Positions 108 through 60,236 of a stretch of 64,000 bases of DNA are shown here, in pieces. Position 1 is the stretch's first letter; each line of letters begins with the position of its first letter. Location: the NCBI RefSeq assembly GCF_028368995.1, contig NZ_JAQNDL010000001.1, positions 1,568,001 through 1,632,000 on the forward strand, written 5' to 3'. The stretch is from Nannocystis bainbridge (GTDB taxonomy: Bacteria; Myxococcota_A; Polyangia; Nannocystales; Nannocystaceae). The notes under the pieces were generated by a model. That model was not told where the DNA came from. It saw only the letters and a list, made by a program, of their open reading frames with translations, and made no database searches. The position numbers were made by a program, and so were the translations under genes.

Positions 108-159
108 TAGCATGCACCTCGGGACATGCACCTTCAAACATGTTCCAAAGGACATCCTA
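108..159. repeat. 14-bp-phased RRRCATGYYY array (4 units)
   Basis: CATG cores at 111, 125, 139 and CATC at 153 (gggacatgcac, aaacatgttcc, ggacatcct); abuts the SDR stop codon. Confidence 0.8.
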
Positions 160-930
160 TTCGACGTAGATCATCGCCCGCGTCATGCCGCCGTCGACCA
201 CGAAGTCCTGGCCGGTGACGAAGCCGGCGCGGTCCGAGACGAGGAAGGCGACCATCGCCGCGACGTCGTCGGGGCGGCCGACCCGCCCGACCGGGTGCTG
301 CGCGTGGTCGACCGGGCGCAGCGGCGCCGGCTCCGGGCGGCCGGGGCCGCGCTCGTCACGGGTGTCGATCCAGCCCGGGCTGACGCAGTTGACGCGGACC
401 GCCGGCCCGAGGCTGCGCGCGAGCGCGTGGGTCAGCGCGACCAGCCCGCCCTTGCTGGCCGCGTAGGCCTCGCTGTCGGGCTCCGACTGGTGGGCGCGCG
501 TCGAGGCGATGTTGACGATCGCCCCGCGGGTCGCCTCGAGGTGCGGCGCCGCGTGCTTGCAGCACAGCATCGGCCCGGTGAGGTTGACCGCCAGCACCCG
601 CTCCCACCGCTCGAGCGCCAGCTTCGCCACCGGCCCGCCGTGTGGGTCGGCGACCGCCGCGTTGTTGACGAGGGCGTCGACCCGGCCGAGCCGCTCCGCC
701 GCCGCCGCCGCCGCCGCTGCGACCTCGGGCTCGCGTGCGAGGTCCGCCTGCACGAACCACGCGGCCTCCGGGCGGGCGAGAGCGGCGAGCGCGTCCTCGC
801 CGGCCTCGCGGTCGACATCGACGAGCACCACGCCGAAGCCGTCGGCCAGCAGCGCGCGGGCGATCGCTCGCCCGATCCCTCGGCCCGCTCCGGTGACGAT
901 CGCGCCGCGCCGGGGACTGGAAGAGCTCAT
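157..930 (-). CDS. Short-chain dehydrogenase/reductase (SDR, FabG-like)
   Basis: TGAGRGIG Rossmann motif, NNAA, catalytic YAASK, VNCVSPG. Confidence 0.93.
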
Positions 931-981
931 CGGCCTTTTTTAGCACCGCCGGCGCCGCACCGCGAGGCCCGCGAAACTCGA

Positions 982-1019
982 TCACATGCCCCGAAGGACA
1001 TGCCCCTTCCGACATGTCC
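982..1019. repeat. 14-bp-phased RRRCATGYYY array (3 units)
   Basis: CATG at 985, 999, 1013 (tcacatgccc cgaa ggacatgccc cttc cgacatgtcc). Confidence 0.85.
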
Positions 1020-1031
1020 TCGCCGCCAGGC

Positions 1032-2210
1032 TCACGGCGCGACGCGCACGATCTCGTTGGCGCCGGCGTCCGCGTACCAGAGATCGCCTTCCGGCCCGAT
1101 CGTGATGCCCATGATGCGCTTGGCCGGCGTCGCCATGCGATCGATCTCCGTGCCTTCGAGGTCGAACGCGACGATGTCCCCGGTCCCGTGCTCGGACACC
1201 AGCAGCCGGCCCTCGTGCAGCGCCAGGCCTGACGGCTCGTCGAGGCCCTCGGCCAGCACCTGCACGTCGGCGCCCTCGACCCCGGTGTACTCGGCCCCGT
1301 CCCAGTCGCCGATCAGCTTGCCGGTGTTGGTGCCGGACGCGGTGTCGAGGCGCAGCAGCCGACCGGCGCCGGTGTCGGCGATGTAGAGCATCCCGGTCGC
1401 GTGGTCGAGCTCCATGTGGCCCGGGATGTTGCCGAGCCGGGTCACCGTCACGTCCTTGTAGCGGGTGATGACGCCGTCGGTGTGGTCGCTGCCGCCGGGC
1501 CCGTGGTCCGACTGGAAATCGTAGCGGACGATGTTGCCGTTCATCCCGTCGAAGGCCCAGAACGCGTTGCCGGCCTCGTGGGCGATGCCCATGCACAGCG
1601 GGCTCTGGTGCAGCATGTCGAGGTGGCTGCCCTCTTGCCCGTTGGGCGGGAACTCCTGGCCGACCTTGGCGAAGATGTCCAGGTCGGCCGGCCACAGCGC
1701 CGGGCCCATGAAATCGTCGGGGTCCTGCGGCCCGACGTTCCACTCGTTGCGCGACTCCTGACAGGTCGCAAACGTGTCGAGGTCGCCGAACGCCGCCGAC
1801 GACACGTACGCCATGAAGTGCTGCCCGTACGCGTCGATGCGCTCCTCCGAGGTCTGCTGCGGCGTGCCGGGGTCGAAGTAGATCACCACCCCGTGGCTCA
1901 GCATGTTGAACGTCCACAGCTGCTCCGGCGCGGCCGGGTTGAACTCGAGGTCGCGGACCGCGTGCAGGCCGTCGGCGGCGGTGCCGATGACGACGAAGGT
2001 CGCGCCGAACTCGGGCACCACGGGCGCCTCGCCGGTCGTGCCGCTGGTCGGCGCGTCGGTGGTGCCCACGGTCGGATCGACGGTCCCGGTGGTCGTGCCG
2101 GGCTCGCCCGTGCTGCTGCTCGTCGCCCCGGTCTCCGCGCCCGGGTCACCTCCGCAGGACGCGAGGGCGAGCGACGACAGGAGCAGCGACAGCGAGCGAA
2201 GCGAAGGCAT
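1032..2210 (-). CDS. Secreted lipoprotein, Thr-rich linker plus probable beta-propeller (NHL/SGL-like)
   Basis: Lipobox LASC, T/S/G-rich stalk, blade-like repeats (PSGLAL, MGITIGPEGDLWYAD, LYIADTG). Confidence 0.8.
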   Translation of the reverse strand: MPSLRSLSLLLSSLALASCGGDPGAETGATSSSTGEPGTTTGTVDPTVGTTDAPTSGTTGEAPVVPEFGATFVVIGTAADGLHAVRDLEFNPAAPEQLWTFNMLSHGVVIYFDPGTPQQTSEERIDAYGQHFMAYVSSAAFGDLDTFATCQESRNEWNVGPQDPDDFMGPALWPADLDIFAKVGQEFPPNGQEGSHLDMLHQSPLCMGIAHEAGNAFWAFDGMNGNIVRYDFQSDHGPGGSDHTDGVITRYKDVTVTRLGNIPGHMELDHATGMLYIADTGAGRLLRLDTASGTNTGKLIGDWDGAEYTGVEGADVQVLAEGLDEPSGLALHEGRLLVSEHGTGDIVAFDLEGTEIDRMATPAKRIMGITIGPEGDLWYADAGANEIVRVAP

Positions 2211-3326: not shown

Positions 3327-4433
3327 ATGCGCTCTCGACCTCCTGCTCAGGCGCTGCTGTGGCTCATGGCGCTGACGTCGTGCTTGACCACCGCGCGCGC
3401 CGACAGCATGCCCGAGGAGGAGCTCTACGGCTTCGAGCTCACCGCCGTCACCGAGCTGTCCGGGCTGTCGCGCTTCCCCGAGCATGTCTTTTACGTGTAT
3501 CCCGCCGCCTGCACCGAGACGATGGCGAGGTTCACGGGATGGCTGGAGACGGGCGACGAGAACCCGGCGCTCGAATATCAGTACTCGTACTCCAGCCGGA
3601 AGGACGACCTGCCCCATTACTTCGTGGTCGGCGACGGCGAGGTGCCGGAGTGGATCGGCGACGGCGCTCCTTGCATCCCCTCGGTCCTCTACGCGCTCGC
3701 CCGCGACGTCGCCGCCACCGTCGATCTCGCGCCCATGACGCTCGCGCAGCTCCACAAGTTCTTCACCGAGGACCCACGACTGTTTCGCAGCAGCTTCGAG
3801 TTCCAGCGCTCCCCGCTGTACGCCAACAACGGCTCACCGCTGCGCGCCGTCCGCGAGCTCGTGCGGGTCCTTCACATCGGTCCTGACGAGATCGTCGCGG
3901 TCCTCGACAGCACCACCTATCGCTTCGAGGACGGCACCGAGCAGACGCTGAAGCTGGCCCACACCAAGCGCCCGCCGTCGCTCCCGTTCAAGCCGCTCAA
4001 GCCCGACAAGCTCACCAAATACGCCGACAAGTACGCCAAGTGGGAGGCCCGCCAACCCCTCGAGCCCCCGCCGGCGCCGCGGCTCCCCGTGATCGACGGC
4101 GCCGATACCGGCTGCAGCGAGGGCACCATCGGGACCGAGCCTGCGCCCGCGCTGCCCGTCGAAGCGCCCGCGCTGCCCGTCGAAGCGCCCGCACCCGACC
4201 CTGTCGCTGCCCCGCCGATCGCCGCCGCGCCCGCCCCGGTCGCCGCGCCATCGGTGATTCCGCCGCCGCCCGAGCCCGAGCCCGCGGAGCCGCTCGAGGA
4301 TGTCTCCGAGGACATGGTCGAAGAGACAGCGCCCGCCACCGATCCGCTGTGGCCGATGGGCGCCGCGATCGCCGGCGGCCTGGCGCTGGTCGCCGTGATC
4401 GCCCTGGCCCGGCGGCCGCGCGCCACGACCTGA
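3327..4433 (+). CDS. Secreted hypothetical protein with Pro/Ala linker and C-terminal TM anchor
   Basis: Signal peptide ending ARA-D, PA-rich region (PALPVEA x2), hydrophobic tail followed by RRPR. Confidence 0.75.
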   Translation: MRSRPPAQALLWLMALTSCLTTARADSMPEEELYGFELTAVTELSGLSRFPEHVFYVYPAACTETMARFTGWLETGDENPALEYQYSYSSRKDDLPHYFVVGDGEVPEWIGDGAPCIPSVLYALARDVAATVDLAPMTLAQLHKFFTEDPRLFRSSFEFQRSPLYANNGSPLRAVRELVRVLHIGPDEIVAVLDSTTYRFEDGTEQTLKLAHTKRPPSLPFKPLKPDKLTKYADKYAKWEARQPLEPPPAPRLPVIDGADTGCSEGTIGTEPAPALPVEAPALPVEAPAPDPVAAPPIAAAPAPVAAPSVIPPPPEPEPAEPLEDVSEDMVEETAPATDPLWPMGAAIAGGLALVAVIALARRPRATT

Positions 4434-4439
4434 CCGTCG

Positions 4440-4449
4440 GGACATGTCC
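4440..4449. repeat. Single perfect GGACATGTCC palindrome
   Basis: Exact decamer 7 bp after the stop of 3327..4433; a degenerate pair (TGTC-N6-GGCA) also at about 4560-4583. Confidence 0.6.
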
Positions 4450-5984: not shown

Positions 5985-6025
5985 CGACATGGCCTCTCGG
6001 ACAGGATGTCCGAAAGGCCATGTCC
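5985..6025. repeat. RRRCATGYYY-type units, two 14-bp-spaced pairs
   Basis: CATG 5988/CAGG 6002 and GATG 6005/CATG 6019 (tgtcc gaaa ggcca); between convergent genes. Confidence 0.65.
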
Positions 6026-10409: not shown

Positions 10410-10447
10410 GGACATGTCCCTGAGTACAGGACCCAAAGGACAGCCGG
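10410..10447. repeat. 14-bp-phased array (3 units, first perfect GGACATGTCC)
   Basis: Cores at 10413 (CATG), 10427 (CAGG), 10441 (CAGC). Confidence 0.65.
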
Positions 10448-11702: not shown

Positions 11703-12011
11703 CGTCCTGTCTCCAGGGACACCTCGCGCATCGGCCCACGACGGGGAACACCCCACAGCTGCGACCCAGACACCCGGCGGCCCCGCTTGTGTCTCCAGGG
11801 ACAGGCCCGATGTCGCGTCCTGGCCCCGATCTGCGACCTCGGGGCCGAAACAATCGGCCTGTCTCGCAGGACATGTCGCAACAGACAGCTGGTTCCGCCG
11901 CCGCCCGGCTCTCGACCTGCCTCGAAGGACATCATGACATGTCCCGAAGACCATGTAACGAGGCAGCCCGCGACCCGCACGCGATCACCGCCTGTCCCGA
12001 AGGCCATGTCC
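11703..12011. repeat. Cluster of 14-bp-spaced TGTC-N6-GACA/RRRCATGYYY units in a divergent intergenic region
   Basis: TGTCTCCAGGGACA twice (11708, 11790); phased cores 11858/11872/11886, 11916/11930, 11938/11952, 11991/12005. Confidence 0.75.
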
Positions 12012-19147: not shown

Positions 19148-19579
19148 ATGTCCAGGACCCATCCAGCCGAGCACCGGCCGCCCCGAGGCGCGCGCGCGTT
19201 CACCCTGGCGTTATCGCTCGCGGCCGCGGCTTGCAGCGTCGCCGACGCCCGCCCGCAGCCCGAGCCGGCCCCCGTGGCCCCGCAGCCCGTCGCGCCCCGC
19301 GAAAACCCGCTCGTCGGCCCCGAGTTCGTCAAGGGCCAGCAGACGCTCGCCGGTCGGATCGAGGAGCGGCTGGTCGCCGGCTCCTACGTCTATCTGGCGA
19401 TCCGCGGCCAGGACGGCGCCACGCAGTGGGCCGCCGTCCTCGGCGCCGCGCCGGCCGTCGGCAGCGACGTCGCGCTCGTCAGCGTCGGCCGCCGCAGCGA
19501 TTTCCATTCACCCCGGCTGCAGCGCGATTTCCCCGTCCTCCACTTCGCGGTCGTCCCCGAACCTCCCGCCTCGCATTGA
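19148..19579 (+). CDS. Putative lipoprotein, OB-fold-like
   Basis: AAAC lipobox; GRIEE..AGSYVYL..WAAV..VG..V...F.S..L.R.F pattern. Confidence 0.65.
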   Translation: MSRTHPAEHRPPRGARAFTLALSLAAAACSVADARPQPEPAPVAPQPVAPRENPLVGPEFVKGQQTLAGRIEERLVAGSYVYLAIRGQDGATQWAAVLGAAPAVGSDVALVSVGRRSDFHSPRLQRDFPVLHFAVVPEPPASH

Positions 19580-19595
19580 AATCAGGAGCCTCCTC

Positions 19596-20174
19596 ATGTC
19601 GATCTTTACCCATACTCCCTGCATCGCCCTCGCCCTCACCCTCGCCGCCTGCGCCAGCGAGCCCGCCGGGGACAGCACCACCGATTCCCCTGACACCGGC
19701 ACCGACACCGATGATTCGACCGGCACCGGCGAACCGGCGTGCGTCGAGGACGACCTCATGCCCAGCCCGTTCGCCGGCCCCGGCTTCGACCCCGACAAGG
19801 GCGGCCTGCAGGAGCCGCTGCAGGACAGCTACGTGGCCAGCACCACCGTGCTGGTGCTCCGCCCGGAGAAGGCCCAGGAATTCGTCGAGACCGTGACCGC
19901 GATGATCCCGGTGCTGCTGGCCAACCCTGGCCTCGTCGGCTTCTCGACCGCGCAATCGATGAAGTGCGGCACGGCGCGGACCCTGGCGGTGTGGCGCGAC
20001 GACGCGGCGATGATGAACTTCGTCGTCTCGGACGAGCACGTGGCCGGCATGACGCGCACGAGCGAGTTCAGCACCACCGGCACTGTCACCTCGTGGAAGG
20101 TCACACGCGCCGAGCTGCCGATCGCCTGGGACGTCGCCATGACCCGGGCCAGCGAAGCGACGCCCTCGTATTGA
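19596..20174 (+). CDS. Lipoprotein with ABM/DUF3291-like dimeric alpha-beta barrel domain
   Basis: LAAC lipobox, AGGAG RBS; NPGLVGF..TLAVWRD.AAM.NFV.S..H..M pattern. Confidence 0.7.
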   Translation: MSIFTHTPCIALALTLAACASEPAGDSTTDSPDTGTDTDDSTGTGEPACVEDDLMPSPFAGPGFDPDKGGLQEPLQDSYVASTTVLVLRPEKAQEFVETVTAMIPVLLANPGLVGFSTAQSMKCGTARTLAVWRDDAAMMNFVVSDEHVAGMTRTSEFSTTGTVTSWKVTRAELPIAWDVAMTRASEATPSY

Positions 20175-20426
20175 TGGCAGACGCGCGCGCCCGAGGTCGT
20201 CGATTCACGCCCCATCGTGCCGCGGCATCGAGGTCGAGCCATCATGCGCGCCGCCTCGTCCCCGTGATCGAGGCGGCCTTCGACTCCACGACGTCGCTCG
20301 CCTCGCGTCCGCGCGCCCGCCGCGAGCGCGCATGCCGGCTCTCTCGCGGGCGCCATGGACCGCTGGATCGCCGACCGCCTCGCCGCGCGGGTCTCCGCGC
20401 CCGCGCGTGATACGTTCCCGCCCATC

Positions 20427-21512
20427 ATGCGCGCGCTCGCCCTCGCCTCCGCGCTGCTGCTGCCCGCGTGCGCCGGCCGCTACCCGGACGCGCACGACCG
20501 CGTGCGCGAGCTGACCGGGGCCGCCGAGCCGCCCGCCTGGCCGCGCGACTGCCTGGTCGCCAACCACGTCCACACCCTCGTCTCCGACCGCTACAGCCAC
20601 GACCCGACCGCCGCCAACGAGCCCCGGGCCTACGACCCCGCCGGTCTGCGCGCCGCCATCGCCCTGTTCGCGCGCGACGGCGTCGGCGCCATCGTCGTCA
20701 CCGATCACAACAGCCCCCACGCCGGCTTCGACCCGGCCGTGGCCACCGCGCCGCTGACCGTGATCCCCGGCATGGAGTGGACCACCCGCCGCGGCCACGC
20801 CCTGCAGATCGGCCTGCGCCTGGACCGGCCGGCCGACGCGATCCTGCCGCCGCGCTGGCGCGACCGCGTCGTCGCCGAAGATTTCCGCCGCATGGTCGAG
20901 GCCACCCATTCGCACGGCGGCCTCGTGATCATCGCCCACCCGCGGGTCCCGTTCCGCACCTGGCCCGACGACACCTTCGGGGCCGACGGCGTCGAGATCT
21001 GGGGCCTCGACAGTGTGGTGATTCGCAACCGCCAGGCGGTGCGCTGGTGGCACGATCGGCTGATCCGCGGCGAGCGGCTCATCGCCGTCGCCGGCACCGA
21101 CCTGCATCCCGGCGCCTGGTTGCGAGATCACCGGAGGCCGCTCAATCGGGTCACCGCGGCCACCTGCGGCGCCGACGACGTGCTCGCCGGCCTGCGCTCC
21201 GGGCACGTCCTGCTGGTCGACGATGGCGCGGCGCCGCGCGTAGTGCTCGCGGTCGACGGCGAGGCGCGGCCGGGCGACACTCTCCCCCTCGAGGGCCGCG
21301 GCGAGATCGATCTGCAGCTACGCGTGCTCGCCGGCAAAGGGGCCCGGGTCCGCCTGCTGGGCCCGGCGGGCGAGCTGTTCGCCCGCACCGTCGCGGGGCC
21401 CGACGAGACGGTGCGACTGCGGCTGCGCGTGCGCCCGGGCGAGTTCGTGCGGGCCGAGCTGCACCGCCGGCGCAAGCCGCTCGCGCTGACCAACCCGGTG
21501 TATTTCCGCTGA
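20427..21512 (+). CDS. PHP-domain (CehA/McbA-like) metallohydrolase lipoprotein
   Basis: HVHT..SD, VTDHN, GMEWT..GH, IAHP, AGTDLH, TNPVY. Confidence 0.85.
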   Translation: MRALALASALLLPACAGRYPDAHDRVRELTGAAEPPAWPRDCLVANHVHTLVSDRYSHDPTAANEPRAYDPAGLRAAIALFARDGVGAIVVTDHNSPHAGFDPAVATAPLTVIPGMEWTTRRGHALQIGLRLDRPADAILPPRWRDRVVAEDFRRMVEATHSHGGLVIIAHPRVPFRTWPDDTFGADGVEIWGLDSVVIRNRQAVRWWHDRLIRGERLIAVAGTDLHPGAWLRDHRRPLNRVTAATCGADDVLAGLRSGHVLLVDDGAAPRVVLAVDGEARPGDTLPLEGRGEIDLQLRVLAGKGARVRLLGPAGELFARTVAGPDETVRLRLRVRPGEFVRAELHRRRKPLALTNPVYFR

Positions 21513-21646
21513 CCGGACGACCCTCGCCGCATCGGCGACCGGCGTGGCGAGCTGCACGCCCCGCCGCGTCGGGGTGGTCGAGAAGGCCGACGGCCTGTTC
21601 GCGCTCGCGCGCCTCGGCGACGGCGCGGGCCAGCAGGTCCACGAGA

Positions 21647-21711
21647 GGACATGTCCTGGAGGGCATGCTCTTTCGGTCATGCCCTTTAGGACATGCCCCC
21701 GAGGACATGCC

Positions 21712-21712
<1 letters not shown>
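21647..21712. repeat. 14-bp-phased RRRCATGYYY array (5 units)
   Basis: CATG at 21650, 21664, 21678, 21692, 21706; abuts the stop of the CoA ligase. Confidence 0.92.
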
Positions 21713-23268
<1,556 letters not shown>

Positions 23269-24511: not shown

Positions 24512-24683
24512 AGGCCGCGAGGGCGAGCATCGGCGCTCGCGCGACGACCTCCGCGGCGATCACCCGCGCGACGGAGTGCGCGGGCGAACTCGAGCCATCG
24601 CCGATCTCGCCGCGCTATCGGGACGGGCGACGCCCGGATCCTGGACAGCACATCGCCTCCCGAGGTACGGCTGGCGCTCCGTC

Positions 24684-28946: not shown

Positions 28947-28984
28947 AAACATGTCCCGATGGACATGTACCTCGGGACATTCAT
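28947..28984. repeat. 14-bp-phased RRRCATGYYY array (3 units)
   Basis: Cores at 28950, 28964, 28978 (aaacatgtcc cgat ggacatgtac ctcg ggacattcat). Confidence 0.85.
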
Positions 28985-28989
28985 CAATT

Positions 28990-30819: not shown

Positions 30820-30871
30820 AGACAAGTTGTTTGAGACATGTGCTTAGGGACAGGAATCTTCGGACATGGAA
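30820..30871. repeat. 14-bp-phased array (4 units)
   Basis: Cores CAAG 30823, CATG 30837, CAGG 30851, CATG 30865; fills the gap between the kinase stop and the next RBS. Confidence 0.8.
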
Positions 30872-30876: not shown

Positions 30877-33849
<2,973 letters not shown>

Positions 33850-35239: not shown

Positions 35240-35277
35240 CCGCATGTCCGCGAGGACATGTCTGTTCGGACATCCGC
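35240..35277. repeat. 14-bp-phased array (3 units) in a divergent intergenic region
   Basis: Cores 35243, 35257, 35271 (catgtcc gcga ggacatgtct gttc ggacatcc). Confidence 0.82.
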
Positions 35278-35328: not shown

Positions 35329-36045
35329 ATGCGTCCCCTCGCCGCCGCCCTCGCCGTCCTGCTGGTCCCGCTCGCCGCCCGCGCCGACATGCTGCCCGAC
35401 GGGCACAAGGGCGTCGAACTGTCCGTGCGCGTCGAGGCCCAGGTCCCGAAGGGCAAGGCGCTGGTGCTGGCCAACACCTTCGAGGGCGGCACCCTCATCG
35501 TCCCCGGCACCGACCAGAAGATCTCGTGGCACCCGCTCGGCGGCGAGATGCAGCTGCGCCTGATCGCCGCCGGCGACACCGATGCGATCAAGGCCGCCGG
35601 CGCCGACCTCGACCGCGACAAGATCAAGCCCCTGCTCGCCGCCGGCGCCGCGTGTGGCCCGACGTTCCCCGGCGTGCGCACGATCGTCGACACCTCGCCC
35701 GCCGTCGAGGTCCGCTGGACCTGGCGCGCCACGATCGACGGCGCCAAGTGCAGCGCCGAGTTGGTCAAGCAGGAGTACCTCGACGCCACCGGCAAGGCCG
35801 TGGGCACCCCGCCGTCGCCCGAGGCGCCCAAGCCCGTGAACGCCCCGCTCGCCGACCCGCCGAAGCCGCCCGACGCTCCCGCTCCGGCCGACAAGACGCC
35901 CGCCCAGGCCCCGGTCCCCGTCAAGGCCGTCGAGCCGCCCGCCAAAGCTCCGGAGTCCGCCAGCGGCTGCGACGCCGGCGGCTCGGCCCCGGGCGGCCTC
36001 GTCGGCCTCGCCCTGGTCCTGTGGCTGCGCCGGCGCCGGGCCTGA
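35329..36045 (+). CDS. Secreted protein with MYXO-CTERM-like sorting signal
   Basis: Signal peptide ARA-D, Pro-rich linker, SGCDAGG..GLVGLALVLWLRRRRA tail. Confidence 0.8.
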   Translation: MRPLAAALAVLLVPLAARADMLPDGHKGVELSVRVEAQVPKGKALVLANTFEGGTLIVPGTDQKISWHPLGGEMQLRLIAAGDTDAIKAAGADLDRDKIKPLLAAGAACGPTFPGVRTIVDTSPAVEVRWTWRATIDGAKCSAELVKQEYLDATGKAVGTPPSPEAPKPVNAPLADPPKPPDAPAPADKTPAQAPVPVKAVEPPAKAPESASGCDAGGSAPGGLVGLALVLWLRRRRA

Positions 36046-36275
36046 TGTCCAACAGGACATGTCCCGAAGTTCTTGTCAACCGCACACGCGCGGCCGCGCC
36101 GGCGCCGGTCCTGATGTCCGCAAGGACATGTCCATAAGTTCATGTCGCCCGCACACGCGCGGCCGCGCCGGCGCGCGATCCGATGTCTTCAAGGACATGT
36201 CTCGAAGCGCAGGTCACCCCCACGCGGACGCCGGGGCGAGCCGGCGCCGCTCCTGATGCCCGCAAGGACATGTCC
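36027..36275. repeat. Higher-order tandem repeat (about 69 bp x 3.6), each unit carrying a 14-bp-phased motif run
   Basis: CATG cores of GGACATGTC at 36058, 36127, 36196 (69-bp period) and 36269; each full unit gcgccggcgcc..cctgatgtcc-N4-ggacatgtcc-N4-..tgtc plus cgcacacgcgcggcc. Confidence 0.9.
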
Positions 36276-36712
36276 CGCCCGGCGGTCGCCGACCAAGCTC
36301 CACCCGCAGCGCCCGGCTCATGGCGAGATCTCGCCCACTCCCGGCGGCGCGGTGCCCTGTCCGCGAGGCCATCTGCACGCCCCGGCTGCTCCGTTCGCGC
36401 CCGCGCGCAGGGTCGGCGGTGACCGCATTCGGCGCCCCGGGAGGGCGAGCTCGCAGCAGCCAGACGCGTGCGCCGCCCTCGTAGCATTGCGACCTCGCCC
36501 CGATGCTCGCCGCTCGCCGACCCACCGCGGCCCGGGCGCCGCCCCCCGCGAACCAGGGGCGGCGGTCGACGATCGGGGGCCGACCGACTCCGCACCGGCC
36601 GGTAGGTCCGGGCGACGCCCCGCGACCGCCCTGTCCTTGCGAGTTCGTAACGCGTAAGTTCGCGCCCGAACGCGCCGGTGGTTTTGCACGCCGGACGAGA
36701 CGACCGAGGAAC

Positions 36713-39597: not shown

Positions 39598-41334
39598 TCA
39601 CGGGGCCAGCATCGGGTTGCGCGACGCCGGCAGCGTGCGCGTCGCCCCGACCTCCGGCAGCTCGAACGGCGCGGGACCGTGGGCCTCCCACGACCACCAG
39701 GCGAAGCTCGGGTCCTCGAGGTCGCGATCGAAGCGCATCCGCGTCGCCAGCGGCCGGCCCTCGGGCGACACCGCCACGATCTCGACGCTCATCGTGCCCG
39801 ACTCGATGCGCTCGCCGACCCGGAAGCGATCGGCCTCGGCGCGGAACAGGCGGTCGAGCGGGGCGTACAGCCAGCCGCCGTCGGGTCGCAGCTCGAGGGT
39901 GCGCGCGTCGACGCGGGTCACGGTCAGCGCGCCCAGGCCGGCGTACAGATAGCGCAGCTCGGCCGGGAACGGCAGCCCCGCCAATCGCCGCCCGGCCCGC
40001 GCATACAACATCAGCAGATCGCTCGGGGCCCGCAGCAAGACGACCCGTTCGGGCGGCGCGGCGGTCAAGTAGACGTCCGCGGCCCGCGAGGCGAGCCCGT
40101 CGATCTGCGCCAGCGACGTCGCGCGCACCGGCAGCATCACCGCGGACAGCAGCACGTGCAGCACGAACCACCCGCGGCCGAACCACCGCAGCCCGGCGCG
40201 GCGGTCCCCGGTCTCGCGCAGCTCGGCGCACAGCTGCGCCGCGAAGCCGAACACGCCGAAGCCGATCAGCAACAGCTGACGATCGGTCGGCAGCGTCGAT
40301 CCGAGAGGCAACGCGCACAACAGCGTGCCGACCGCCCAGAACCGCAGCGCCGCGCTGCGCCGCAGCTCGGCCCGAAACCACGCCGCCAGGCCCGCGAGCG
40401 TCACCGCGGCGACCAGCGCAGCCGGCAGGAACAGGCCCGGCGCCATGGCGAGCGCCTCGCCGGCGCTGATGAACACCTGCGACCATACGAGGATCAGCCC
40501 GTGCGCGAGCGAGCGGACCAGGAAGCCGGGCTGGTCGCCCGGATCGAAGTAAAACCCGGAATGTGCGGTGCCGTATCCGGCCGCGACGTAGGCGACCCGC
40601 CACGCCACCACCACCGCGGCCGCGGGCAGCAGCGACACCAGCCGCCGGGTCACCGGCCCGCGCTCGATGCACAGGGCATACGCGGCGAGGAACCCGCAGA
40701 CGGCCACCGCGCCCTCGCTGGCGAGCAATCCGAGCAGCAACAGGGCAGGAGCCAGCGCCGCGCCCGGGCGCCAGCCCTCACGCCAGCGCACGTACGCGGC
40801 CAGGCACCCGAGCGCCAGCGTGGCGCCCATCATGCCGTTGCGCGCCGCGAGCCAGCCGACCACCATGCCGTGGCTGTGATCGATCGCGTAAAGCAGCGTC
40901 GCCAGCCCGCAGGCCCAGCGCGCCGGGATCAGCCGGCCGTAGACCCGCGCCGCGACGACCAGCAGCAGCGCGTACCACCCCAGGCTTTGCACGTGCATCC
41001 ACACGGGCTGTCCGGGCCACAGGCGCAGATCGACGAGGTGGGTGACGGCCGCGAGCGGACGCAGGAGCGCGAGTGACATCGCCTCGTGCTTCCACCACGG
41101 CGCGTCGGCGCCGGCGAACAGCGGCGTCGGCCCGCCGAACAGCACGAACAGATCCCCCGGGTCGCCGCCGCCGTCGGCCACGCGGGCCGCCTGCAGCAGG
41201 TCGTCGAGGTTGAGCCCGTTGGCGAGGCTGGGCGCGCAGAGCAACACCCCGAGCAACACCGCGACCCACGTCGCCCCGGGCCGGGCGAGCGCGCGGACGT
41301 ACAGCGGTTCGGTGCTCGCATTCACTCGCTCCAA
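39598..41334 (-). CDS. Polytopic membrane protein, GT-C glycosyltransferase-like
   Basis: TM1 followed by LDD, RPL..., H..VGWLAARN, LLASE; more than 10 TM helices; start uncertain. Confidence 0.7.
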   Translation of the reverse strand: MERVNASTEPLYVRALARPGATWVAVLLGVLLCAPSLANGLNLDDLLQAARVADGGGDPGDLFVLFGGPTPLFAGADAPWWKHEAMSLALLRPLAAVTHLVDLRLWPGQPVWMHVQSLGWYALLLVVAARVYGRLIPARWACGLATLLYAIDHSHGMVVGWLAARNGMMGATLALGCLAAYVRWREGWRPGAALAPALLLLGLLASEGAVAVCGFLAAYALCIERGPVTRRLVSLLPAAAVVVAWRVAYVAAGYGTAHSGFYFDPGDQPGFLVRSLAHGLILVWSQVFISAGEALAMAPGLFLPAALVAAVTLAGLAAWFRAELRRSAALRFWAVGTLLCALPLGSTLPTDRQLLLIGFGVFGFAAQLCAELRETGDRRAGLRWFGRGWFVLHVLLSAVMLPVRATSLAQIDGLASRAADVYLTAAPPERVVLLRAPSDLLMLYARAGRRLAGLPFPAELRYLYAGLGALTVTRVDARTLELRPDGGWLYAPLDRLFRAEADRFRVGERIESGTMSVEIVAVSPEGRPLATRMRFDRDLEDPSFAWWSWEAHGPAPFELPEVGATRTLPASRNPMLAP

Positions 41335-41533: not shown

Positions 41534-41613
41534 GGACATGGCTCAAAAATTATGCCCGCATGGACATGTCCACTCGAACATGCTCTTCCATGCATGTCCT
41601 TAGGGACATGCAT
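41534..41613. repeat. 14-bp-phased RRRCATGYYY array (6 units, longest simple array)
   Basis: Cores at 41537, 41551 (TATG), 41565, 41579, 41593, 41607. Confidence 0.92.
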
Positions 41614-45598: not shown

Positions 45599-46363
45599 TT
45601 GACCGAGTCCAGTGATTCACCCCGCACCGTCCTTATCACCGGCGCCGGTCGCGGCATCGGGGCTGCCACCGCGCGGCTCGCCGCTCGCGCTGGCTATCGC
45701 GTGTGCATCAACTACGCCGCCGACGACGCCAGCGCCCAGCAGGTCGTCGCCGACTGTCGCGCCTGCGGCGTCGATGCGATCGCCGTCAAGGCCGACGTCG
45801 CCGCGCCCGCCGATGTCGAGCGCCTCTTCCTCACCTGCGAGCGCGACCTCGGCAGGGTCACCCACCTCGTCAACAACGCCGGCATCATCGGCGCCCCCGC
45901 GCGGGTCGAGGACATCGCCGCCGCCACCGTTCACGCCGTGCTCGCCGTCAACGTCGCCGGCGCCATCTTCTGCGCCCAGCAGGCCATCCGGCGCATGTCG
46001 AACGAACGCGGCGGGCGCGGCGGCGTCATCGTCAACGTCTCCTCGATCGCCGCCGTCACCGGCAGCCCCGGCGAGTACGTGCATTACGCTGCATCCAAGG
46101 CCGCGCTCGAGACCTTCACGGTCGGCCTCGCCCGCGAGGTCGGCCCGCTCGGGATCCGCGTCAACGCCGTCCAGCCCGGCACCACCGCCACCGAGATCCA
46201 CGCCCGCTCCGGCAACCCCGACCGCCCGGCGATGGTCGCCCGGATCGCCCCCTTGCGCCGCGTCGCGGACGCCGACGAGGTCGCCGAGGCGATCCTGTGG
46301 CTGCTCTCCGACCGCGCGGCCTACGTCTCCGGCGCCGTCCTCAAGGTCACCGGCGGTTTGTGA
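45599..46363 (+). CDS. SDR family oxidoreductase
   Basis: [29 protein letters not shown]. Confidence 0.92.
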   Translation: MTESSDSPRTVLITGAGRGIGAATARLAARAGYRVCINYAADDASAQQVVADCRACGVDAIAVKADVAAPADVERLFLTCERDLGRVTHLVNNAGIIGAPARVEDIAAATVHAVLAVNVAGAIFCAQQAIRRMSNERGGRGGVIVNVSSIAAVTGSPGEYVHYAASKAALETFTVGLAREVGPLGIRVNAVQPGTTATEIHARSGNPDRPAMVARIAPLRRVADADEVAEAILWLLSDRAAYVSGAVLKVTGGL

Positions 46364-46373: not shown

Positions 46374-46411
46374 GGGCATGTCTTTTAAGACATGTCTATG
46401 CGCACAGCCCG
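46374..46411. repeat. 14-bp-phased array (2 good units plus 1 degenerate)
   Basis: gggcatgtct ttta agacatgtct; cores 46377, 46391, (46405). Confidence 0.8.
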
Positions 46412-55747: not shown

Positions 55748-55785
55748 AAGGCTGTCTTTTAAGGCATGTCCTTCCAGACATGAAA
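55748..55785. repeat. 14-bp-phased array (3 units)
   Basis: Cores GCTG 55751, CATG 55765, CATG 55779. Confidence 0.75.
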
Positions 55786-57552: not shown

Positions 57553-58269
57553 ATGCGAAAATACCTTAGGCATCTCACCCACCTCACCCTCGTTCTCACC
57601 GCTTTCGCCGCCTGCGATTCCGGGGACATCACGCCGCGCGAGGCCGATCCGCTGGTCTGCGGCGGCTTCGCGGGCCTCGAATGCCCGGCCGGCCTCGTCT
57701 GCGTCGACGACCCGAGCGACGATTGCGACCCGCTCAAGGGCGGCGCCGATTGCATCGGCATCTGCGAGGACCCCGGCCCCGCGACCTGCGGCGGCTTCCT
57801 CGGAACCGAATGCCCCGAAGGACAGGTCTGCGTCGACGACCCGAACGACGATTGCGACCCGCAGAACGGCGGCGCCGACTGCATCGGCGTCTGCGAGGAG
57901 GCCCCCGCGACCTGCGGCGGCTTCCTCGGCACCGAATGCCCCGACGGCCAGGTCTGCGTCGACGACCCGAACGACGATTGCGACCCGCAGAACGGCGGCT
58001 CCGACTGCATCGGCGTCTGCGAGGACGGCCCGGCCGTGTGCGGCGGGATCCTCGGCACCGCCTGCCCCAAGGGCCAGACCTGCGTCGACGACCCCAGCGA
58101 CGACTGCGACCCGGAGAAGGGCGGGGACGACTGCATCGGCGTCTGCACCGACTCCGGCCGGGTGTACGTGAACCACGATCCGGCCGCCTGCCTGGCGATC
58201 AAGTTCGCGTGCCCCAAGGGCATGAAGCACTTCTTCGACGCGACCGGCTGCGGCTGCGAGCCGGAGTGA
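57553..58269 (+). CDS. Lipoprotein with four tandem 6-Cys repeats (CGGFxGxxCPxGxxCVDDPxDDCDPxxGGADCIGxC)
   Basis: FAAC lipobox; repeats start at 57658, 57787, 57913, 58039. Confidence 0.88.
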   Translation: MRKYLRHLTHLTLVLTAFAACDSGDITPREADPLVCGGFAGLECPAGLVCVDDPSDDCDPLKGGADCIGICEDPGPATCGGFLGTECPEGQVCVDDPNDDCDPQNGGADCIGVCEEAPATCGGFLGTECPDGQVCVDDPNDDCDPQNGGSDCIGVCEDGPAVCGGILGTACPKGQTCVDDPSDDCDPEKGGDDCIGVCTDSGRVYVNHDPAACLAIKFACPKGMKHFFDATGCGCEPE

Positions 58270-58428
58270 GCCTGGCGACGCGGCGATCCTGACCGCGCAC
58301 CGGGCCGCCCAGCCCGCCTTTGCGCGGCCCCGGACGGTCCAGCCCGCCCGCGCGCGCGCGGCGGCGTGTCCAACGGCACGCCGCCGCGCGCCCCGCGGGC
58401 GTTTTTAATCGGGTAGACGTTGCCGCGC

Positions 58429-60141
58429 ATGAGCGACGACGAAGACCTCCCCCCGCCGACCGGCTTCGCCGCGCTCGACCTGCCCGAGCCGCTCCTCAAG
58501 GCCCTGAGCGACGTCGGCTACGAGACGCCGTCACCGATCCAGTCGCAGACGATCCCGCACCTGCTGGCCGGACGCGACCTGCTCGGCCAGGCCCAGACCG
58601 GCACCGGCAAGACCGCGGCGTTCGCCCTGCCGATCCTCGCGCGCCTCGACCGGACCCGGCCGACCCTGCAGGCGCTGGTGCTCACGCCCACGCGCGAGCT
58701 GGCGATCCAGGTCGCCGAGGCGCTGCACCGCTACGCCGCCCACATGCCGGGCTTCCGCGTGCTGCCGATCTACGGCGGCCAGAGCTACGGCCCGCAGCTG
58801 CAAGCGCTCGGGCGCGGGGTCCATGTCGTCGTCGGCACCCCGGGGCGCATCATCGATCACCTCGGCCGCGGCTCGCTCGACCTGACGCAGCTGCGCCAGG
58901 TCGTGCTCGACGAGGCCGACGAGATGCTGCGCATGGGCTTCATCGACGACGTCGAGCACATCCTGCGCGCGACCCCGGCCGCGCGGCAGACCGCGCTGTT
59001 CTCGGCCACCCTGCCGCCGCCGATCCGGCGGATCGCCCAGACCTACCTGCGCGACCCGGTCGAGGTCACGATCGCCGGCAAGAGCCGCACCGCCGACAAC
59101 ATCCGCCAGCGCTACTGGGTCGTCAGCGGCATGCACAAGCTCGACGCGCTGACGCGGATCCTCGAGGCCGAGACGTTCGACGCGATGATCGTGTTCGCCC
59201 GCACCAAGGTCGCCACCGACGACCTGGCCGAGCGCCTGCAGGCCCGCGGCTTCGCGGCCGCGGCGATCAACGGCGACATCCCGCAGGCCCAGCGCGAGCG
59301 CACGATCGCCATGCTGCGCGACGGCGCGATCGACATCCTCGTCGCCACCGACGTCGCCGCCCGCGGGCTCGACGTCGACCGCATCAGCCACGTCATGAAC
59401 TACGACGTGCCGACCGACCCGGAGAGCTACGTCCACCGGATCGGCCGCACGGGCCGCGCCGGCCGCAGCGGCGAGGCGGTCCTGTTCATCGCCCCGCGCG
59501 AGCGCGGCCTGCTGCGCATGATCGAGCGCGCGACCCGACAGCCGATCACGCCGATGGAGCTGCCGACCATCAAGATGGTCAACGACGTGCGGCTGGCGCG
59601 GTTCAAGCAGCAGATCCGCGACAGCATCGCCGCTGGCGGCCTCGAGCCGTTCCAGAACGCGATCGAGGAGCTCGAGAAGGAGGACAACATCCCCGCGCTC
59701 GAGATCGCGGCCGCCCTGGCCAAGATGGTCCGCAAGGGCGAGCCGTTCATGCTGGCGGCCGAGCGCCGCGAGCCCGAGGAGCGGCACACGCACGAGGAGC
59801 GGCCGCCGGCGCGCGGCCCCGACCCCGGCATGGCCGCCTACCGCGTCGAGGTCGGCCACCTCCACGGCCTCCGGCCCGGCAACCTGGTCGGCGCGATCGC
59901 CAACGAGGCCCGGCTGACGAGCAAGCAGATCGGCCGCATCGACATCCAGAAGGACCACGCCTTCGTCGAGCTGCCCGCCGAGCTGCCCGACGAGCTGCTG
60001 CAGCACCTGAAGAACGTGTGGGTCGCCGGCGGCCAGCTGCGGATCACCCGCGACGGCGAGCCGCCCGACGACGAGGGCAAGCGCCCGCCCAAGCGCAACC
60101 TGCTGCGCGGGCGCCTGTTCGGCAAGCCGCGCCGGAACTGA
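58429..60141 (+). CDS. deaD: DEAD-box RNA helicase DeaD/CsdA
   Basis: AQTGTGKT, PTRELA, DEADEML.MGF, SAT, HRIGRTGRAG, DbpA-type RNA-binding tail (GNLVGAIANE). Confidence 0.93.
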   Translation: MSDDEDLPPPTGFAALDLPEPLLKALSDVGYETPSPIQSQTIPHLLAGRDLLGQAQTGTGKTAAFALPILARLDRTRPTLQALVLTPTRELAIQVAEALHRYAAHMPGFRVLPIYGGQSYGPQLQALGRGVHVVVGTPGRIIDHLGRGSLDLTQLRQVVLDEADEMLRMGFIDDVEHILRATPAARQTALFSATLPPPIRRIAQTYLRDPVEVTIAGKSRTADNIRQRYWVVSGMHKLDALTRILEAETFDAMIVFARTKVATDDLAERLQARGFAAAAINGDIPQAQRERTIAMLRDGAIDILVATDVAARGLDVDRISHVMNYDVPTDPESYVHRIGRTGRAGRSGEAVLFIAPRERGLLRMIERATRQPITPMELPTIKMVNDVRLARFKQQIRDSIAAGGLEPFQNAIEELEKEDNIPALEIAAALAKMVRKGEPFMLAAERREPEERHTHEERPPARGPDPGMAAYRVEVGHLHGLRPGNLVGAIANEARLTSKQIGRIDIQKDHAFVELPAELPDELLQHLKNVWVAGGQLRITRDGEPPDDEGKRPPKRNLLRGRLFGKPRRN

Positions 60142-60170
60142 GCCGCACGAGCGGCCGCCGATGACACGAG

Positions 60171-60236
60171 AGACATGTCCTAACGGACATGTCTCTTTTC
60201 ATATGTCTGTCGAGGCATGTCCTCTCGAACATGTCC
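60171..60236. repeat. 14-bp-phased RRRCATGYYY array (5 units)
   Basis: Cores at 60174, 60188, 60202 (TATG), 60216, 60230. Confidence 0.92.

What the first reader, a model, noticed from the sequence alone, without database searches (positions are those of the whole stretch)
108..60236. Dispersed family of 14-bp-phased palindrome arrays (RRRCATGYYY-N4)n
Seen in sequence: at least 15 intergenic loci carry a palindromic decamer (ideal GGACATGTCC). All but the single copy at 4440 are tandem runs whose CATG cores are exactly 14 bp apart. Loci: 111/125/139/153; 985/999/1013; 4443; 5988-6019; 10413/27/41; 11858-12005; 21650/64/78/92/706; 28950/64/78; 30823/37/51/65; 35243/57/71; 36044-36269; 41537/51/65/79/93/607; 46377/91; 55751/65/79; 60174/88/202/16/30. 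The 4-nt spacers vary freely and the flanks keep only their purine/pyrimidine character, while the period is invariant. Slippage microsatellites do not look like this, and I do not recognise it as a described REP or CRISPR element. Eleven of the 15 loci lie within about 30 bp of a stop codon, next to functionally unrelated genes. Inference: conserved phase with degenerate sequence suggests cooperative binding by a polymerising DNA-binding protein. A 14-bp step is about 1.33 helical turns, so three sites span four turns and bound dimers would spiral around the DNA. At about one locus per 4-5 kb this could be an undescribed chromosome-organisation, roadblock/insulator or self-marking system. Alternatives are a REP-like element (TGTC-N6-GACA hairpins) or clustered methylation targets (CATG/RCATGY).
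Basis: partly seen in the sequence, partly recalled or inferred. Interest (0 to 1): 0.93.

Follow-up and report, generated by a model that had tools for sequence, protein, structure and literature searches.

The report
Phased CATG palindrome arrays after genes
A soil myxobacterium (genus Nannocystis) carries thousands of short rows of one 10-letter DNA palindrome spaced exactly 14 letters apart, mostly just after genes; no description of them was found, and they look like docking rows for an unknown protein.

Summary
The 11-Mb genome holds about 3,300 arrays (1,496 with 3 or more units) of a 10-bp palindrome, consensus GGACATGTCC. The step is an invariant 14 bp: 926 RRRCATGYYY pairs at 14 bp, against 13 at 13 bp, 3 at 15 bp and 0 in composition-matched shuffles.

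Arrays lie just after stop codons. They occupy 56% of convergent gene gaps and 13% of divergent ones. About 15% sit deep inside ORFs. No two arrays share spacer combinations, so they are not copies of each other.

Between species about 91% identical, 47 of 56 arrays persist at the same site. CATG cores are about 91-93% conserved, spacers 56-72% and ordinary intergenic DNA 80%. Size plateaus at 3-6 units.

Hairpin covariation is weak. No RAYT transposase, Rfam family or matching paper was found. An exact three-unit pattern hits only Nannocystis among 185,579 species genomes.

Best reading (about 45%): cooperative binding sites for an unidentified symmetric dsDNA-binding protein. Rivals are a REP/BIME-like hairpin element and a DNA-uptake-signal-like motif.

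The scan earlier found a different CATG-centred palindrome-array family in Solirubrobacterales.

Side finding: Rho was not detected in any of 61 Nannocystaceae genomes.

The parts
108..159 (.). 4-unit array (TAGCATGCAC, GGACATGCAC, AAACATGTTC, GGACATCCTA) that overlaps the stop of the SDR gene at 157-930 (-). A GC-rich hairpin lies just upstream, at about 90-107.
982..1019 (.). 3-unit array, 13 bp from the stop of the gene at 1032-2210 (-)
4426..4449 (.). One perfect unit (GGACATGTCC at 4440) preceded in phase by a weak unit; it abuts the stop of the gene at 3327-4433 (+)
5985..6025 (.). Two 2-unit runs offset by 17 bp (phase broken by 3 extra bases) between convergent genes that end at 5976 and 6058
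10410..10447 (.). One intact unit plus two decayed in-phase units. The orthologous gap in two sister species holds an intact 4-unit array.
11855..12005 (.). Cluster of short (2-unit) arrays and single units in a promoter-side gap
21647..21712 (.). 5-unit array that abuts the stop of the AMP-binding enzyme gene (21712-23469, -). Arrays of 4-6 units with different spacers sit at the same site in 5 of 5 sister species.
28947..28984 (.). 3-unit array present here but absent from the orthologous site in 3 of 3 sister species (lineage-specific gain or loss)
30820..30871 (.). 4 in-phase units with cores CAAG, CATG, CAGG, CATG, ending 6 bp before the stop of the kinase gene (30877-33849, -)
35240..35277 (.). 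3-unit array conserved, spacers partly included, in 3 of 3 sister species
36040..36277 (.). 69-bp tandem repeat (3.6 copies); each copy repeats a gene's 3' end (stop at 36043-36045) plus 2-3 array units
41534..41613 (.). 6-unit array in a long gap upstream of the gene at 39598-41334 (-); no orthologous anchors were found in relatives
46374..46397 (.). 2-unit array in the short gap between two co-directional genes (stop at 46361-46363)
55748..55785 (.). 2 units with CATG, preceded in phase by one weak unit, about 75 bp upstream of the gene at 55861 (+)
60171..60236 (.). 5-unit array (third unit degenerate) 30 bp after the stop of the DEAD-box helicase gene (58420-60141, +). In three relatives 2.4-11.5 kb of extra DNA follows this point.

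Best explanation
The arrays are rows of binding sites on double-stranded DNA. Each 10-bp palindrome (GGRCATGYCC) would be read by a symmetric dimer of one sequence-specific protein. Neighbouring dimers would bind in register at a fixed 14-bp step. That step is about 1.33 helical turns, so three sites span four turns. The assembly would be finite, typically 3-6 units.

Shown here:
- the motif, the invariant phase and the size plateau;
- the independence of arrays from one another;
- persistence at orthologous sites, with cores constrained and spacers turning over;
- the composition rules of the spacers;
- placement right after stop codons, but also inside ORFs.

Inferred, not shown: that a protein binds, that binding is cooperative, and what it achieves.

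My reading is that the job does not depend on location. It could be nucleoid organisation, a topological mark or a self-DNA mark. Gene ends would then be mainly where such rows are tolerated. Any effect on transcript 3' ends through the hairpins the rows can form would be secondary.
For: 1. Phase. 926 site pairs lie at 14 bp, against 13 at 13 bp, 3 at 15 bp and 0 in shuffles. With the PWM the counts are 5,009 against 76 and 101. A hairpin loop would tolerate length changes; a protein ruler would not.

2. Independence. One consensus recurs in 3,288 arrays whose spacer combinations are shared no more than chance predicts (573 shared signatures against 588 +/- 14 in shuffles). Adjacent spacers are identical in only 3.9% of 3,509 pairs, against 1.4% at random. 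The arrays are neither transposed copies nor fresh slippage products.

3. Constraint. 47 of 56 anchored arrays have an array at the same site in a species 90.8% identical. Identity is 0.91 for cores, 0.72 for arms and 0.555 for spacers. In the 13 equal-length arrays it is 0.926, 0.853 and 0.717. Non-array intergenic DNA is 0.803. The conservation has a 14-bp period, not a 3-bp one, even inside ORFs.

4. No palindrome-keeping covariation within a unit. Positions 2 and 7 form Watson-Crick pairs in 1,955 cases against 2,213 expected. Mirrored spacers are not complementary (1.424 against 1.412 +/- 0.022).

5. The spacer centre prefers AA/TT/AT, CG and GA/TC and avoids TA. This holds alike on both strands, and spacers are AT-enriched. 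This is typical of DNA-shape readout.

6. Both half-sites are equally conserved where only one gene runs into the array.

7. Size plateaus at 3-6 units and drops at 7-8 even with 100 bp or more of spare room.

8. Known precedent for short degenerate boxes at a fixed spacing with AT-rich spacers, bound by a ribbon-helix-helix protein: parH of plasmid TP228 (PMC3130281, abstract seen).
Against: No candidate protein was found, and no binding, ChIP or methylation data exist.

The arrays fold strongly as single strands: -17 to -40 kcal/mol, with z-scores of -2.8 to -6.6 for six strands of four window arrays.

Real arrays are 1.5-1.8 kcal/mol more stable than random re-assemblies of pooled units and spacers (p <= 5e-4).

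Adjacent units are slightly more complementary than chance: columns 7/16 pair in 2,347 cases against 2,201 expected, and columns 2/21 in 2,375 against 2,234. Some hairpin-related process therefore also acts.

Core identity in gapped alignments is inflated, because any unit aligns to any other unit.

Gene calls come from my own crude GC3-based ORF caller (6,555 genes covering about 77% of the genome). Position statistics and 'inside ORF' calls are therefore approximate.
Confidence: 0.45

Rival explanations
1. REP/BIME-like hairpin element. The rows would act as single-stranded structures: in RNA as 3'-end stabilisers or bidirectional U-tract-less terminators, and in ssDNA as substrates of an unknown maintenance enzyme. 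The palindromic consensus itself guarantees that any unit can pair with any other.
For: Gene-end and convergent-gap bias as for REP. REP roles in termination and mRNA stabilisation, and BIMEs as regularly spaced REPs in alternating orientation, come from PMC3733652 and PMC2817692 (abstracts seen).

Strong folding potential. A small but significant excess of stability over re-assembled controls, and sense RNA slightly more stable than antisense (-27.5 against -26.5 kcal/mol, p = 0.01).

Weak complementarity between adjacent units, and between spacers two apart (12.4% against 8.4% with 3 or more matches).

The family looks Rho-less, so intrinsic signals matter more.
Against: No Y1/RAYT transposase in the genome (the genome is 90.5% complete).

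No covariation that keeps units palindromic and none between mirrored spacers.

The loop length is invariant, although hairpins do not need that.

No T-run follows the arrays: TTTT occurs within 20 nt in 1% of 418 one-sided arrays.

The groEL, tuf and rpoC operon ends use ordinary hairpins instead.

Units are kept inside ORFs, where a terminator has no use.

Arrays are not copies of one another.
Confidence: 0.27
2. DNA-uptake-signal-like or self-recognition motif. A receptor, for instance of the type IV pilus or competence machinery, would prefer DNA that carries phased units. Biased uptake plus recombination (molecular drive) would then keep units everywhere they are tolerated, with no function at the site itself.
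For: The features parallel neisserial DUS as described in PMC2397512 (passages read): a genus-specific short motif about once per kb, mostly intergenic, often 'just after the stop codon', as close inverted pairs that act as terminators, lying in faster-diverging permissive regions and also inside genes.

Here the motif is genus-specific. Units are kept in non-conserved ORF linkers across 6 species. Array regions diverge faster than other intergenic DNA. Arrays are spread evenly along all contigs. ComEC and DprA genes are present, though these are also present in non-competent bacteria.
Against: Known uptake sequences are asymmetric single 9-12-mers, not phased palindrome rows. Competence of Nannocystis is unknown to me. 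No receptor was identified. Nothing here tests uptake.
Confidence: 0.18
3. Functionless minisatellite-type DNA. A 14-bp unit would seed and expand by slippage at gene ends, and the phase would be preserved simply because duplication copies whole units.
For: Some arrays are obvious recent tandem duplications, for example eight GGTCATGYCCctga units, and a 42-bp higher-order repeat. Adjacent spacers are identical somewhat more often than chance. Copy number differs between species.
Against: Most adjacent spacers are unrelated, yet fewer than 2% of neighbouring units are out of phase. Cores are more conserved than neutral DNA while spacers are less. One consensus is shared by thousands of independent loci and six species. 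Size is capped.
Confidence: 0.07

Closest known systems
REP elements and BIME clusters (Enterobacteria, Pseudomonas; mobilised by RAYT/TnpA_REP)
   Same: High-copy palindromic repeats between genes, preferentially at 3' ends. Clusters have regular spacing and alternating orientation. Proposed roles are in supercoiling, termination and mRNA stability, and as protein-binding sites (PMC2817692 and PMC3733652, abstracts seen).
   Different: REPs are 20-40-bp imperfect hairpins with a GTAG or CGTC tag and a cognate RAYT. Here the unit is a 10-bp palindrome without that tag, and no RAYT was found. The step is exactly 14 bp with non-conserved spacers. Arrays are not copies of each other, and hairpin covariation is weak.
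DNA uptake sequences (DUS of Neisseriaceae, USS of Pasteurellaceae)
   Same: Lineage-specific short motif at about one per kb, mostly intergenic, often just after stop codons and in terminator-forming inverted pairs. Also found in permissive parts of genes and kept across related species (PMC2397512, passages read; PMC3630211, abstract seen).
   Different: DUS and USS are asymmetric, and one copy suffices. Here the unit is a palindrome and occurs in strictly phased rows of 2-7 units. Uptake was not tested.
Operator or centromere arrays bound by ribbon-helix-helix proteins (e.g. parH of plasmid TP228, bound by ParG)
   Same: An array of short degenerate boxes at a fixed spacing with AT-rich spacers, coated by dimers (PMC3130281, abstract seen).
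   Different: That is one ~100-bp site per plasmid with 4-bp boxes. Here there are about 3,300 chromosomal sites with 10-bp palindromes at a 14-bp step, and no protein is known.
CATG-centred 24-bp perfect-palindrome arrays of Solirubrobacterales
   Same: Rows of palindromes with a CATG centre, dispersed, usually just after stop codons, sometimes inside genes, with no RAYT.
   Different: In those, each unit is a 24-bp perfect palindrome whose arms differ between units and covary. Here the arms follow one consensus, do not covary within a unit, and the period is 14 bp. The phylum also differs.
p53 response element (RRRCWWGYYY)
   Same: The decamer consensus is formally identical. The literature search for the decamer returned p53 papers at the top of the list (47 papers hold the term, 25 listed).
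   Different: This is a coincidence of motif only. No P53-domain match was found in the genome, but the control genomes did not ring either, so that search is uninformative.

Membership tests
REP/BIME | Unit is a 20-40-bp imperfect palindrome that forms a stem-loop | tested here: not met
   The unit is a 10-bp palindrome with a 4-bp spacer. Palindromy does not extend into the spacers: Watson-Crick pairs number 973 against 994 expected, and 834 against 786.
REP/BIME | Conserved GTAG or CGTC tag at one end of the palindrome | tested here: not met
   The position matrices of units and flanks show no such tag. The tag definition is from the PMC3733652 abstract.
REP/BIME | A cognate RAYT (Y1 transposase, PF01797) in the genome | tested here: not met
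   0 matches in G000 (90.5% complete), while the control rang in 6 of 14 genomes.
REP/BIME | High copy number, extragenic, biased to gene 3' ends | tested here: met
   3,288 arrays. 56% of convergent gaps hold one, against 13% of divergent gaps. 40% start within 20 bp of a stop.
DNA uptake sequences | The motif enhances uptake or transformation of DNA that carries it | not testable with these tools
   Needs uptake assays. Only ComEC and DprA were found, and these do not discriminate.
DNA uptake sequences | Lineage-specific over-representation, spread evenly over the genome, including permissive parts of genes | tested here: met
   GGACATGTCC occurs 956 times against 9.5 expected. The exact three-unit pattern hits only Nannocystis in the scan of 185,579 species genomes. 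There are 6-49 arrays per 200 kb on all contigs. 228 arrays lie deep inside ORFs.
Intrinsic (Rho-independent) terminator | Stable GC-rich hairpin followed by a U-tract | tested here: not met
   Hairpin potential is present. TTTT occurs within 20 nt downstream in only 1% of 418 one-sided arrays. Canonical terminators do exist elsewhere, after groEL and tuf.
Cooperative protein-binding array (RHH-type operator or centromere) | A cognate DNA-binding protein that coats the repeats in register | not tested
   No candidate was identified. Only the DNA-side features (fixed step, degenerate boxes, AT-rich spacers) are met.
CRISPR | Identical repeats of 23 bp or more separated by unique spacers of similar length | tested here: not met
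   10-bp degenerate units with 4-bp spacers.

The most novel reading that the evidence does not exclude
Nannocystis, a member of a myxobacterial family in which Rho was not detected, may use a dedicated oligomeric protein of about six dimers. It would dock on phased palindrome rows as a genome-wide punctuation system at gene ends. That would be a protein-based terminator, insulator or supercoil barrier with no described bacterial counterpart, and it would have been built and kept at more than 3,000 independent sites.
Probability: 0.15. Interest if true: 0.9.

Novelty: new variant of a known kind. Interest (0 to 1): 0.7.

Why it matters
If a protein reads these rows, this is a natural genome-scale case of cooperative, phase-dependent DNA recognition. 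It offers thousands of independent sites, so the binding grammar (core, arms, spacer shape, 14-bp ruler, roughly six-unit cap) can be read straight from sequence.

It would also give a handle on how a very large (11-13 Mb), 71% G+C genome that apparently lacks Rho marks gene ends or organises its chromosome.

If the rows instead prove to be uptake or self-recognition signals, they would extend that concept beyond Neisseriaceae and Pasteurellaceae and to a new architecture.

Either way, the element is a ready species marker and a source of rapid intergenic change in Nannocystis, a genus studied for natural products.

Tried and rejected
1. RNA-seq evidence. No RNA holder was listed for window 19500-29400, so transcript ends could not be examined.

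2. Rho-ruler idea. I rejected this: no Rho RNA-binding domain or full-length Rho model matched the genome, and the sense strand of the arrays has no C-over-G excess (summed by hand from the matrix).

3. RAYT/Y1 transposase: none found.

4. Rfam: no family in the window.

5. P53 domain: no match, but the control was silent, so the result is uninformative.

6. Arrays as recombination or indel breakpoints. 12 of 21 indel junctions have an array at an edge, against 42 of 75 other junctions, so there is no enrichment. Length differences between orthologous intervals are not mainly multiples of 14: 3 of 24 non-zero differences.

7. Spacer inversion between species: direct identity 2.87 of 4 against reverse-complement identity 1.03 of 4 (38 spacers), so this was rejected.

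8. Macrodomain restriction: arrays occur on all contigs, at 6-49 per 200 kb.

9. Mutual exclusion with ordinary hairpins in convergent gaps. The flanks of arrays fold less well than array-free gaps (-15.8 against -23.9 kcal/mol), but sequence length confounds this, so I left it inconclusive.

10. Viral contigs: 0 matches to a three-unit pattern. I draw no inference from this.

11. Binding-protein hunt. I found no practicable way to shortlist candidates. The neighbours of the longest arrays are ordinary convergent genes. The 14-bp row of a genome in another genus (G057) is a simple recent duplication.

12. Earlier scan notes: nothing on this genome or on look-alike sequence.

13. Literature: the decamer gave 47 papers, of which the 25 listed were led by p53 work and included none on bacterial repeats. 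'Nannocystis' with intergenic/repeat or with palindromic, 'myxobacteria' with 'repetitive extragenic palindromic' and 'termination factor Rho' with 'myxobacteria' gave nothing relevant. I saw listings and abstracts only. Subscription journals are not covered.

Full report
WHAT IS THERE. The window is G000:C1:1568001-1632000 of an 11.05-Mb, 71.5% G+C genome in 5 contigs. In the window RRRCATGYYY occurs 26 times against 2.48 expected; the largest of 100 dinucleotide shuffles gave 6. CATG cores pair at 14 bp (19 pairs), 28 bp (10) and 42 bp (10), and 4 times or fewer at any other distance.

Genome-wide, 39,940 CATG give 3,736 pairs at 14 bp, 2,073 at 28, 1,586 at 42 and 751 at 56, against 72 at 13 bp and 262 at 15 bp. 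RRRCATGYYY occurs 4,032 times against 430-432 in three composition-matched 500-bp block shuffles. Pairs at 14 bp number 926 against 0; at 13 bp 13; at 15 bp 3.

An unbiased look at units flanked on both sides by good units gives the consensus G(.71) G(.62) A/G(.47/.38) C A T G(.92-.95) and its mirror image. The 4-nt spacer is not conserved but is not random.

With a symmetric weight matrix I called 3,288 arrays of 2 or more units and 1,496 of 3 or more, 10,085 units in all. The sizes are 2:1792, 3:544, 4:354, 5:296, 6:202, 7:69, 8:16, 9:8 and a few up to 13. Arrays cover 1.16% of the genome. They are 57.7% G+C, and the spacers 47.5%. The perfect decamer occurs 956 times against 9.5 expected, and 743 of those lie in arrays. 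All 15 loci of the finding hold the motif, though several listed cores are degenerate.

WHERE THE ARRAYS LIE. No annotation was available, so I called genes with a crude GC3-based ORF picker. It gave 6,555 genes covering about 77% of the genome, so genes are under-called and starts are over-extended.

Of 988 CATG-chain arrays of 3 or more units, 450 lie between convergent genes, 345 between co-directional genes and 48 between divergent genes. A further 143 lie inside a called ORF and 2 at contig edges. The background of gaps is 1,147 convergent, 2,766 co-directional and 1,020 divergent. By gap, 609 of 1,088 convergent gaps (56%) hold an array. So do 381 of 1,399 and 318 of 1,345 co-directional gaps (27% and 24%) and 126 of 970 divergent gaps (13%).

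The first unit starts within 20 bp of a called stop in 600 of 1,496 arrays, against 4.3% of 5,000 random intergenic segments. Preferred registers put the TGA stop in phase with the row: there are peaks at +6 (85 arrays) and +11 (56). Long arrays often fill a convergent gap from stop to stop. Flanking genes in the window are unrelated: SDRs, a zinc alcohol dehydrogenase, a cytochrome c peroxidase, a PAS/STAS protein, an AMP-binding enzyme, Ser/Thr kinases and a DEAD-box helicase. Arrays occur on every contig at 6-49 per 200 kb.

ARRAYS INSIDE GENES. 347 of 1,496 arrays lie within called ORFs. Of these, 228 are more than 200 nt from the called start and more than 100 nt from the stop, with high GC3 in the same frame on both sides. 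They translate into low-complexity linkers. Their cores are more degenerate: 55% are CATG, against 78% in intergenic arrays, and CCTG and CAGG are the common variants.

Two such arrays were followed into five sister species. The ORF is collinear, the unit number is unchanged and the units are largely kept, while the spacers differ in most species. Conservation with a 14-bp period inside a coding region cannot come from codon constraints.

HOW THE ARRAYS EVOLVE. Consecutive-spacer signatures are shared between arrays no more than chance predicts (573 against 588 +/- 14 in shuffles). Arrays are therefore not transposed copies of one another. Adjacent spacers are identical in 3.9% of 3,509 pairs against 1.4% at random. 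A few arrays are plainly recent tandem duplications, but most are not.

At the 21647 locus all six large genomes carry an array against the same stop codon, with 4-6 units and unrelated spacers. The 28947 array is absent from 3 of 3 relatives. The 10410 remnant corresponds to intact 4-unit arrays in two relatives. The 35240 array is conserved in 3 of 3.

For a larger sample I aligned 390 kb of contig C1 with 400 kb of relative G010; 361 kb aligned at 90.8% identity. Of 84 arrays of 3 or more units, 24 lacked an anchor on one side and 4 had distant anchors. Of the remaining 56, 47 have an array of 2 or more units at the same site, 17 with the same unit count, and 9 have none.

Per-position identity in those 47 is 0.912 for cores, 0.717 for arms and 0.555 for spacers. 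In the 13 equal-length arrays, mostly intragenic and compared without gaps, it is 0.926, 0.853 and 0.717. Non-array intergenic DNA is 0.803 (52 gaps), and codon positions are 0.958, 0.975 and 0.889. One caveat applies: where copy number differs, any unit aligns to any other, which inflates core identity and deflates spacer identity. The ungapped subset shows the same ranking.

So cores, and to a lesser degree arms, are constrained, while spacers drift at least as fast as other non-coding DNA. Yet fewer than 2% of neighbouring units have slipped out of the 14-bp phase. Phase is either selected or built in.

HAIRPIN OR DUPLEX? A mutual-information scan by array size found only adjacent-column signals inside spacers. 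Within a unit the mirror positions do not covary so as to keep the palindrome. Positions 2 and 7 form Watson-Crick pairs in 1,955 cases against 2,213 expected, although my score threshold contributes to that deficit. Mirrored spacers are not complementary (best-centre statistic 1.424 against 1.412 +/- 0.022).

There is a weak signal between neighbours. Unit i position 7 pairs with unit i+1 position 2 in 2,347 cases against 2,201 expected. The outer pair 2/21 gives 2,375 against 2,234. Spacers two apart have 3 or more complementary bases in 12.4% of cases against 8.4%.

Because every unit is near one palindromic consensus, arrays fold well in any case. Six strands of four window arrays gave -17 to -40 kcal/mol with z-scores of -2.8 to -6.6. 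Real arrays are only 1.5-1.8 kcal/mol more stable than random re-assemblies of pooled units and spacers (p <= 5e-4). Sense RNA is marginally more stable than antisense (-27.5 against -26.5 kcal/mol; lower in 219 arrays, higher in 196). This genome's large GC skew could explain that.

There is no T-run downstream: TTTT lies within 20 nt in 1% of 418 one-sided arrays. Both half-sites are equally conserved where only one gene runs into the array. The spacer centre favours AA, TT, AT, CG, GA and TC and avoids TA, AC, GT and GC, alike on both strands. That looks like DNA-shape readout rather than an RNA loop.

Array size plateaus at 3-6 units and collapses at 7-8 even where 100 bp or more of gap is free: 203, 155, 129, 99, 32 and 4 arrays of 3 to 8 units. 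Taken together I read the rows as duplex sites for a symmetric protein that binds in register as a finite assembly. Some hairpin-driven process, either mutational template switching or a secondary RNA role, would act on top. The helical arithmetic is inference: 14 bp is 1.33 turns, so three sites span four turns.

WHAT THE ARRAYS ARE PROBABLY NOT. They are not RAYT-driven REPs: PF01797 gave no match in the genome while the controls rang. They match no Rfam family.

They are not the default terminators of highly expressed operons. groEL and one tuf copy end in classical hairpin-plus-T-run terminators and rpoC in GC-rich hairpins, so 0 of 3 have arrays. The second tuf copy runs on into rpsJ.

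They are not a Rho-loading ruler. The Rho RNA-binding domain is not found in this genome or in any of 61 genomes sampled from its family, 39 of which are 90% or more complete. The full-length Rho model also fails here. The same domain model matches 34 of 40 other genomes of the phylum at E-values of 1e-25 to 1e-36. That apparent loss of Rho is a side finding. It covers the whole family and so does not track the arrays.

WHO HAS THEM. The strict three-unit pattern occurs in 7 of 10 other genomes of the genus, in 0 of 14 genomes of other genera of the family and in 0 of 16 genomes of other families of the class. The same kind of pattern scanned over one genome for each of 185,579 species hit only records titled Nannocystis.

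Counting four CATG at 14-bp steps gives 869 in this genome and 409-527 in four large congeners. Three small, fragmented same-genus genomes give only 3-8. One genome of another genus (G071) gives 22 with the same consensus, two genomes of a third genus give 10 and 2, and all others sampled give 0. In all, 11 of 61 genomes have a match, and the reversed control pattern scored 0 everywhere. The one row inspected in the third genus is a plain recent 14-bp duplication. No match was found in 2.9 million viral contigs.

COMPARISON WITH KNOWN SYSTEMS. REP/BIME elements share copy number, palindromy, gene-end bias and regular clusters (PMC2817692 and PMC3733652, abstracts). They differ in unit size, end tag, RAYT, covariation and copy relationships.

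Neisserial uptake sequences share a striking list of distribution features (PMC2397512, passages read). However, they are asymmetric and are not phased rows.

Ribbon-helix-helix operator or centromere arrays such as parH share the grammar of degenerate boxes at a fixed step with AT-rich spacers (PMC3130281, abstract). They are single loci.

Earlier notes of this scan describe CATG-centred 24-bp perfect-palindrome rows after genes in Solirubrobacterales. The shared CATG centre and placement are intriguing. In that family the arms covary and differ from unit to unit, whereas here they follow one consensus and do not covary.

I found no paper describing the Nannocystis element (listings and abstracts only; subscription literature is not covered).

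VERDICT. Recognition of duplex DNA by a protein binding in register is the best-supported mechanism (about 0.45) but remains unproven. A REP-like hairpin role (about 0.27), an uptake or self-recognition signal kept by molecular drive (about 0.18) and neutral minisatellite behaviour (about 0.07) remain open.

I class the element as a new variant of the known kind 'dispersed gene-end palindromic repeats'. What is unusual is its invariant-phase, free-spacer, size-capped architecture.

Noticed in passing
whole genome G000 and 60 other genomes of its family: Termination factor Rho was not detected. PF07497 matched 0 of 61 Nannocystaceae genomes, and TIGR00767 gave no match in G000. PF07497 matched 34 of 40 other genomes of the phylum. 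The family appears to have lost Rho; one paper search found nothing on this.
   Followed up: partly
window 36023-36277: 69-bp tandem repeat (3.6 copies). Each copy repeats the last bases of an ORF, including its TGA, plus 2-3 array units, so a gene end and its array were amplified together.
   Followed up: partly
window 57657-58146 and 38541-38905: Long coding-type tandem repeats: 126 bp x 3.9 at 86% match, and 135 bp x 2.7. They are also repeated in the sister species and are unrelated to the arrays.
   Followed up: no
genome-wide (G000): Array starts prefer two registers relative to the stop codon: +6 (85 arrays) and +11 (56). With -8 (20) and -3 (31), these put the TGA in phase with the row, as if the stop codon counts as part of a unit.
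   Followed up: partly
genome-wide (G000): Adjacent units tend weakly to be reverse complements of each other, while within a unit the two halves tend to differ. Of pairs at distance 1, 572 are opposite-type against 471 same-type; the tendency reverses at distances 2-4. This may reflect hairpin-templated mutation.
   Followed up: partly
window 60236 onward; 21513-21647: Sister species carry 2.4-11.5 kb of extra DNA right after the 60171 array and 2.7-3.6 kb next to the 21647 array. The inserted gene brings its own array after its stop. Genome-wide there was no enrichment of arrays at indel junctions.
   Followed up: yes
L092 (G000:C1, groEL 3' end): The GroEL C-terminal GGM repeat ends in ggcatggacatgtga. 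This resembles array units by chance and is followed by a canonical hairpin-plus-T-run terminator.
   Followed up: no
G071 (another genus of the family): One 67%-complete genome of a different genus has 22 four-unit rows with the same consensus, while six other genomes of that genus have none. This could be patchy inheritance, horizontal transfer or a binning or classification problem.
   Followed up: no
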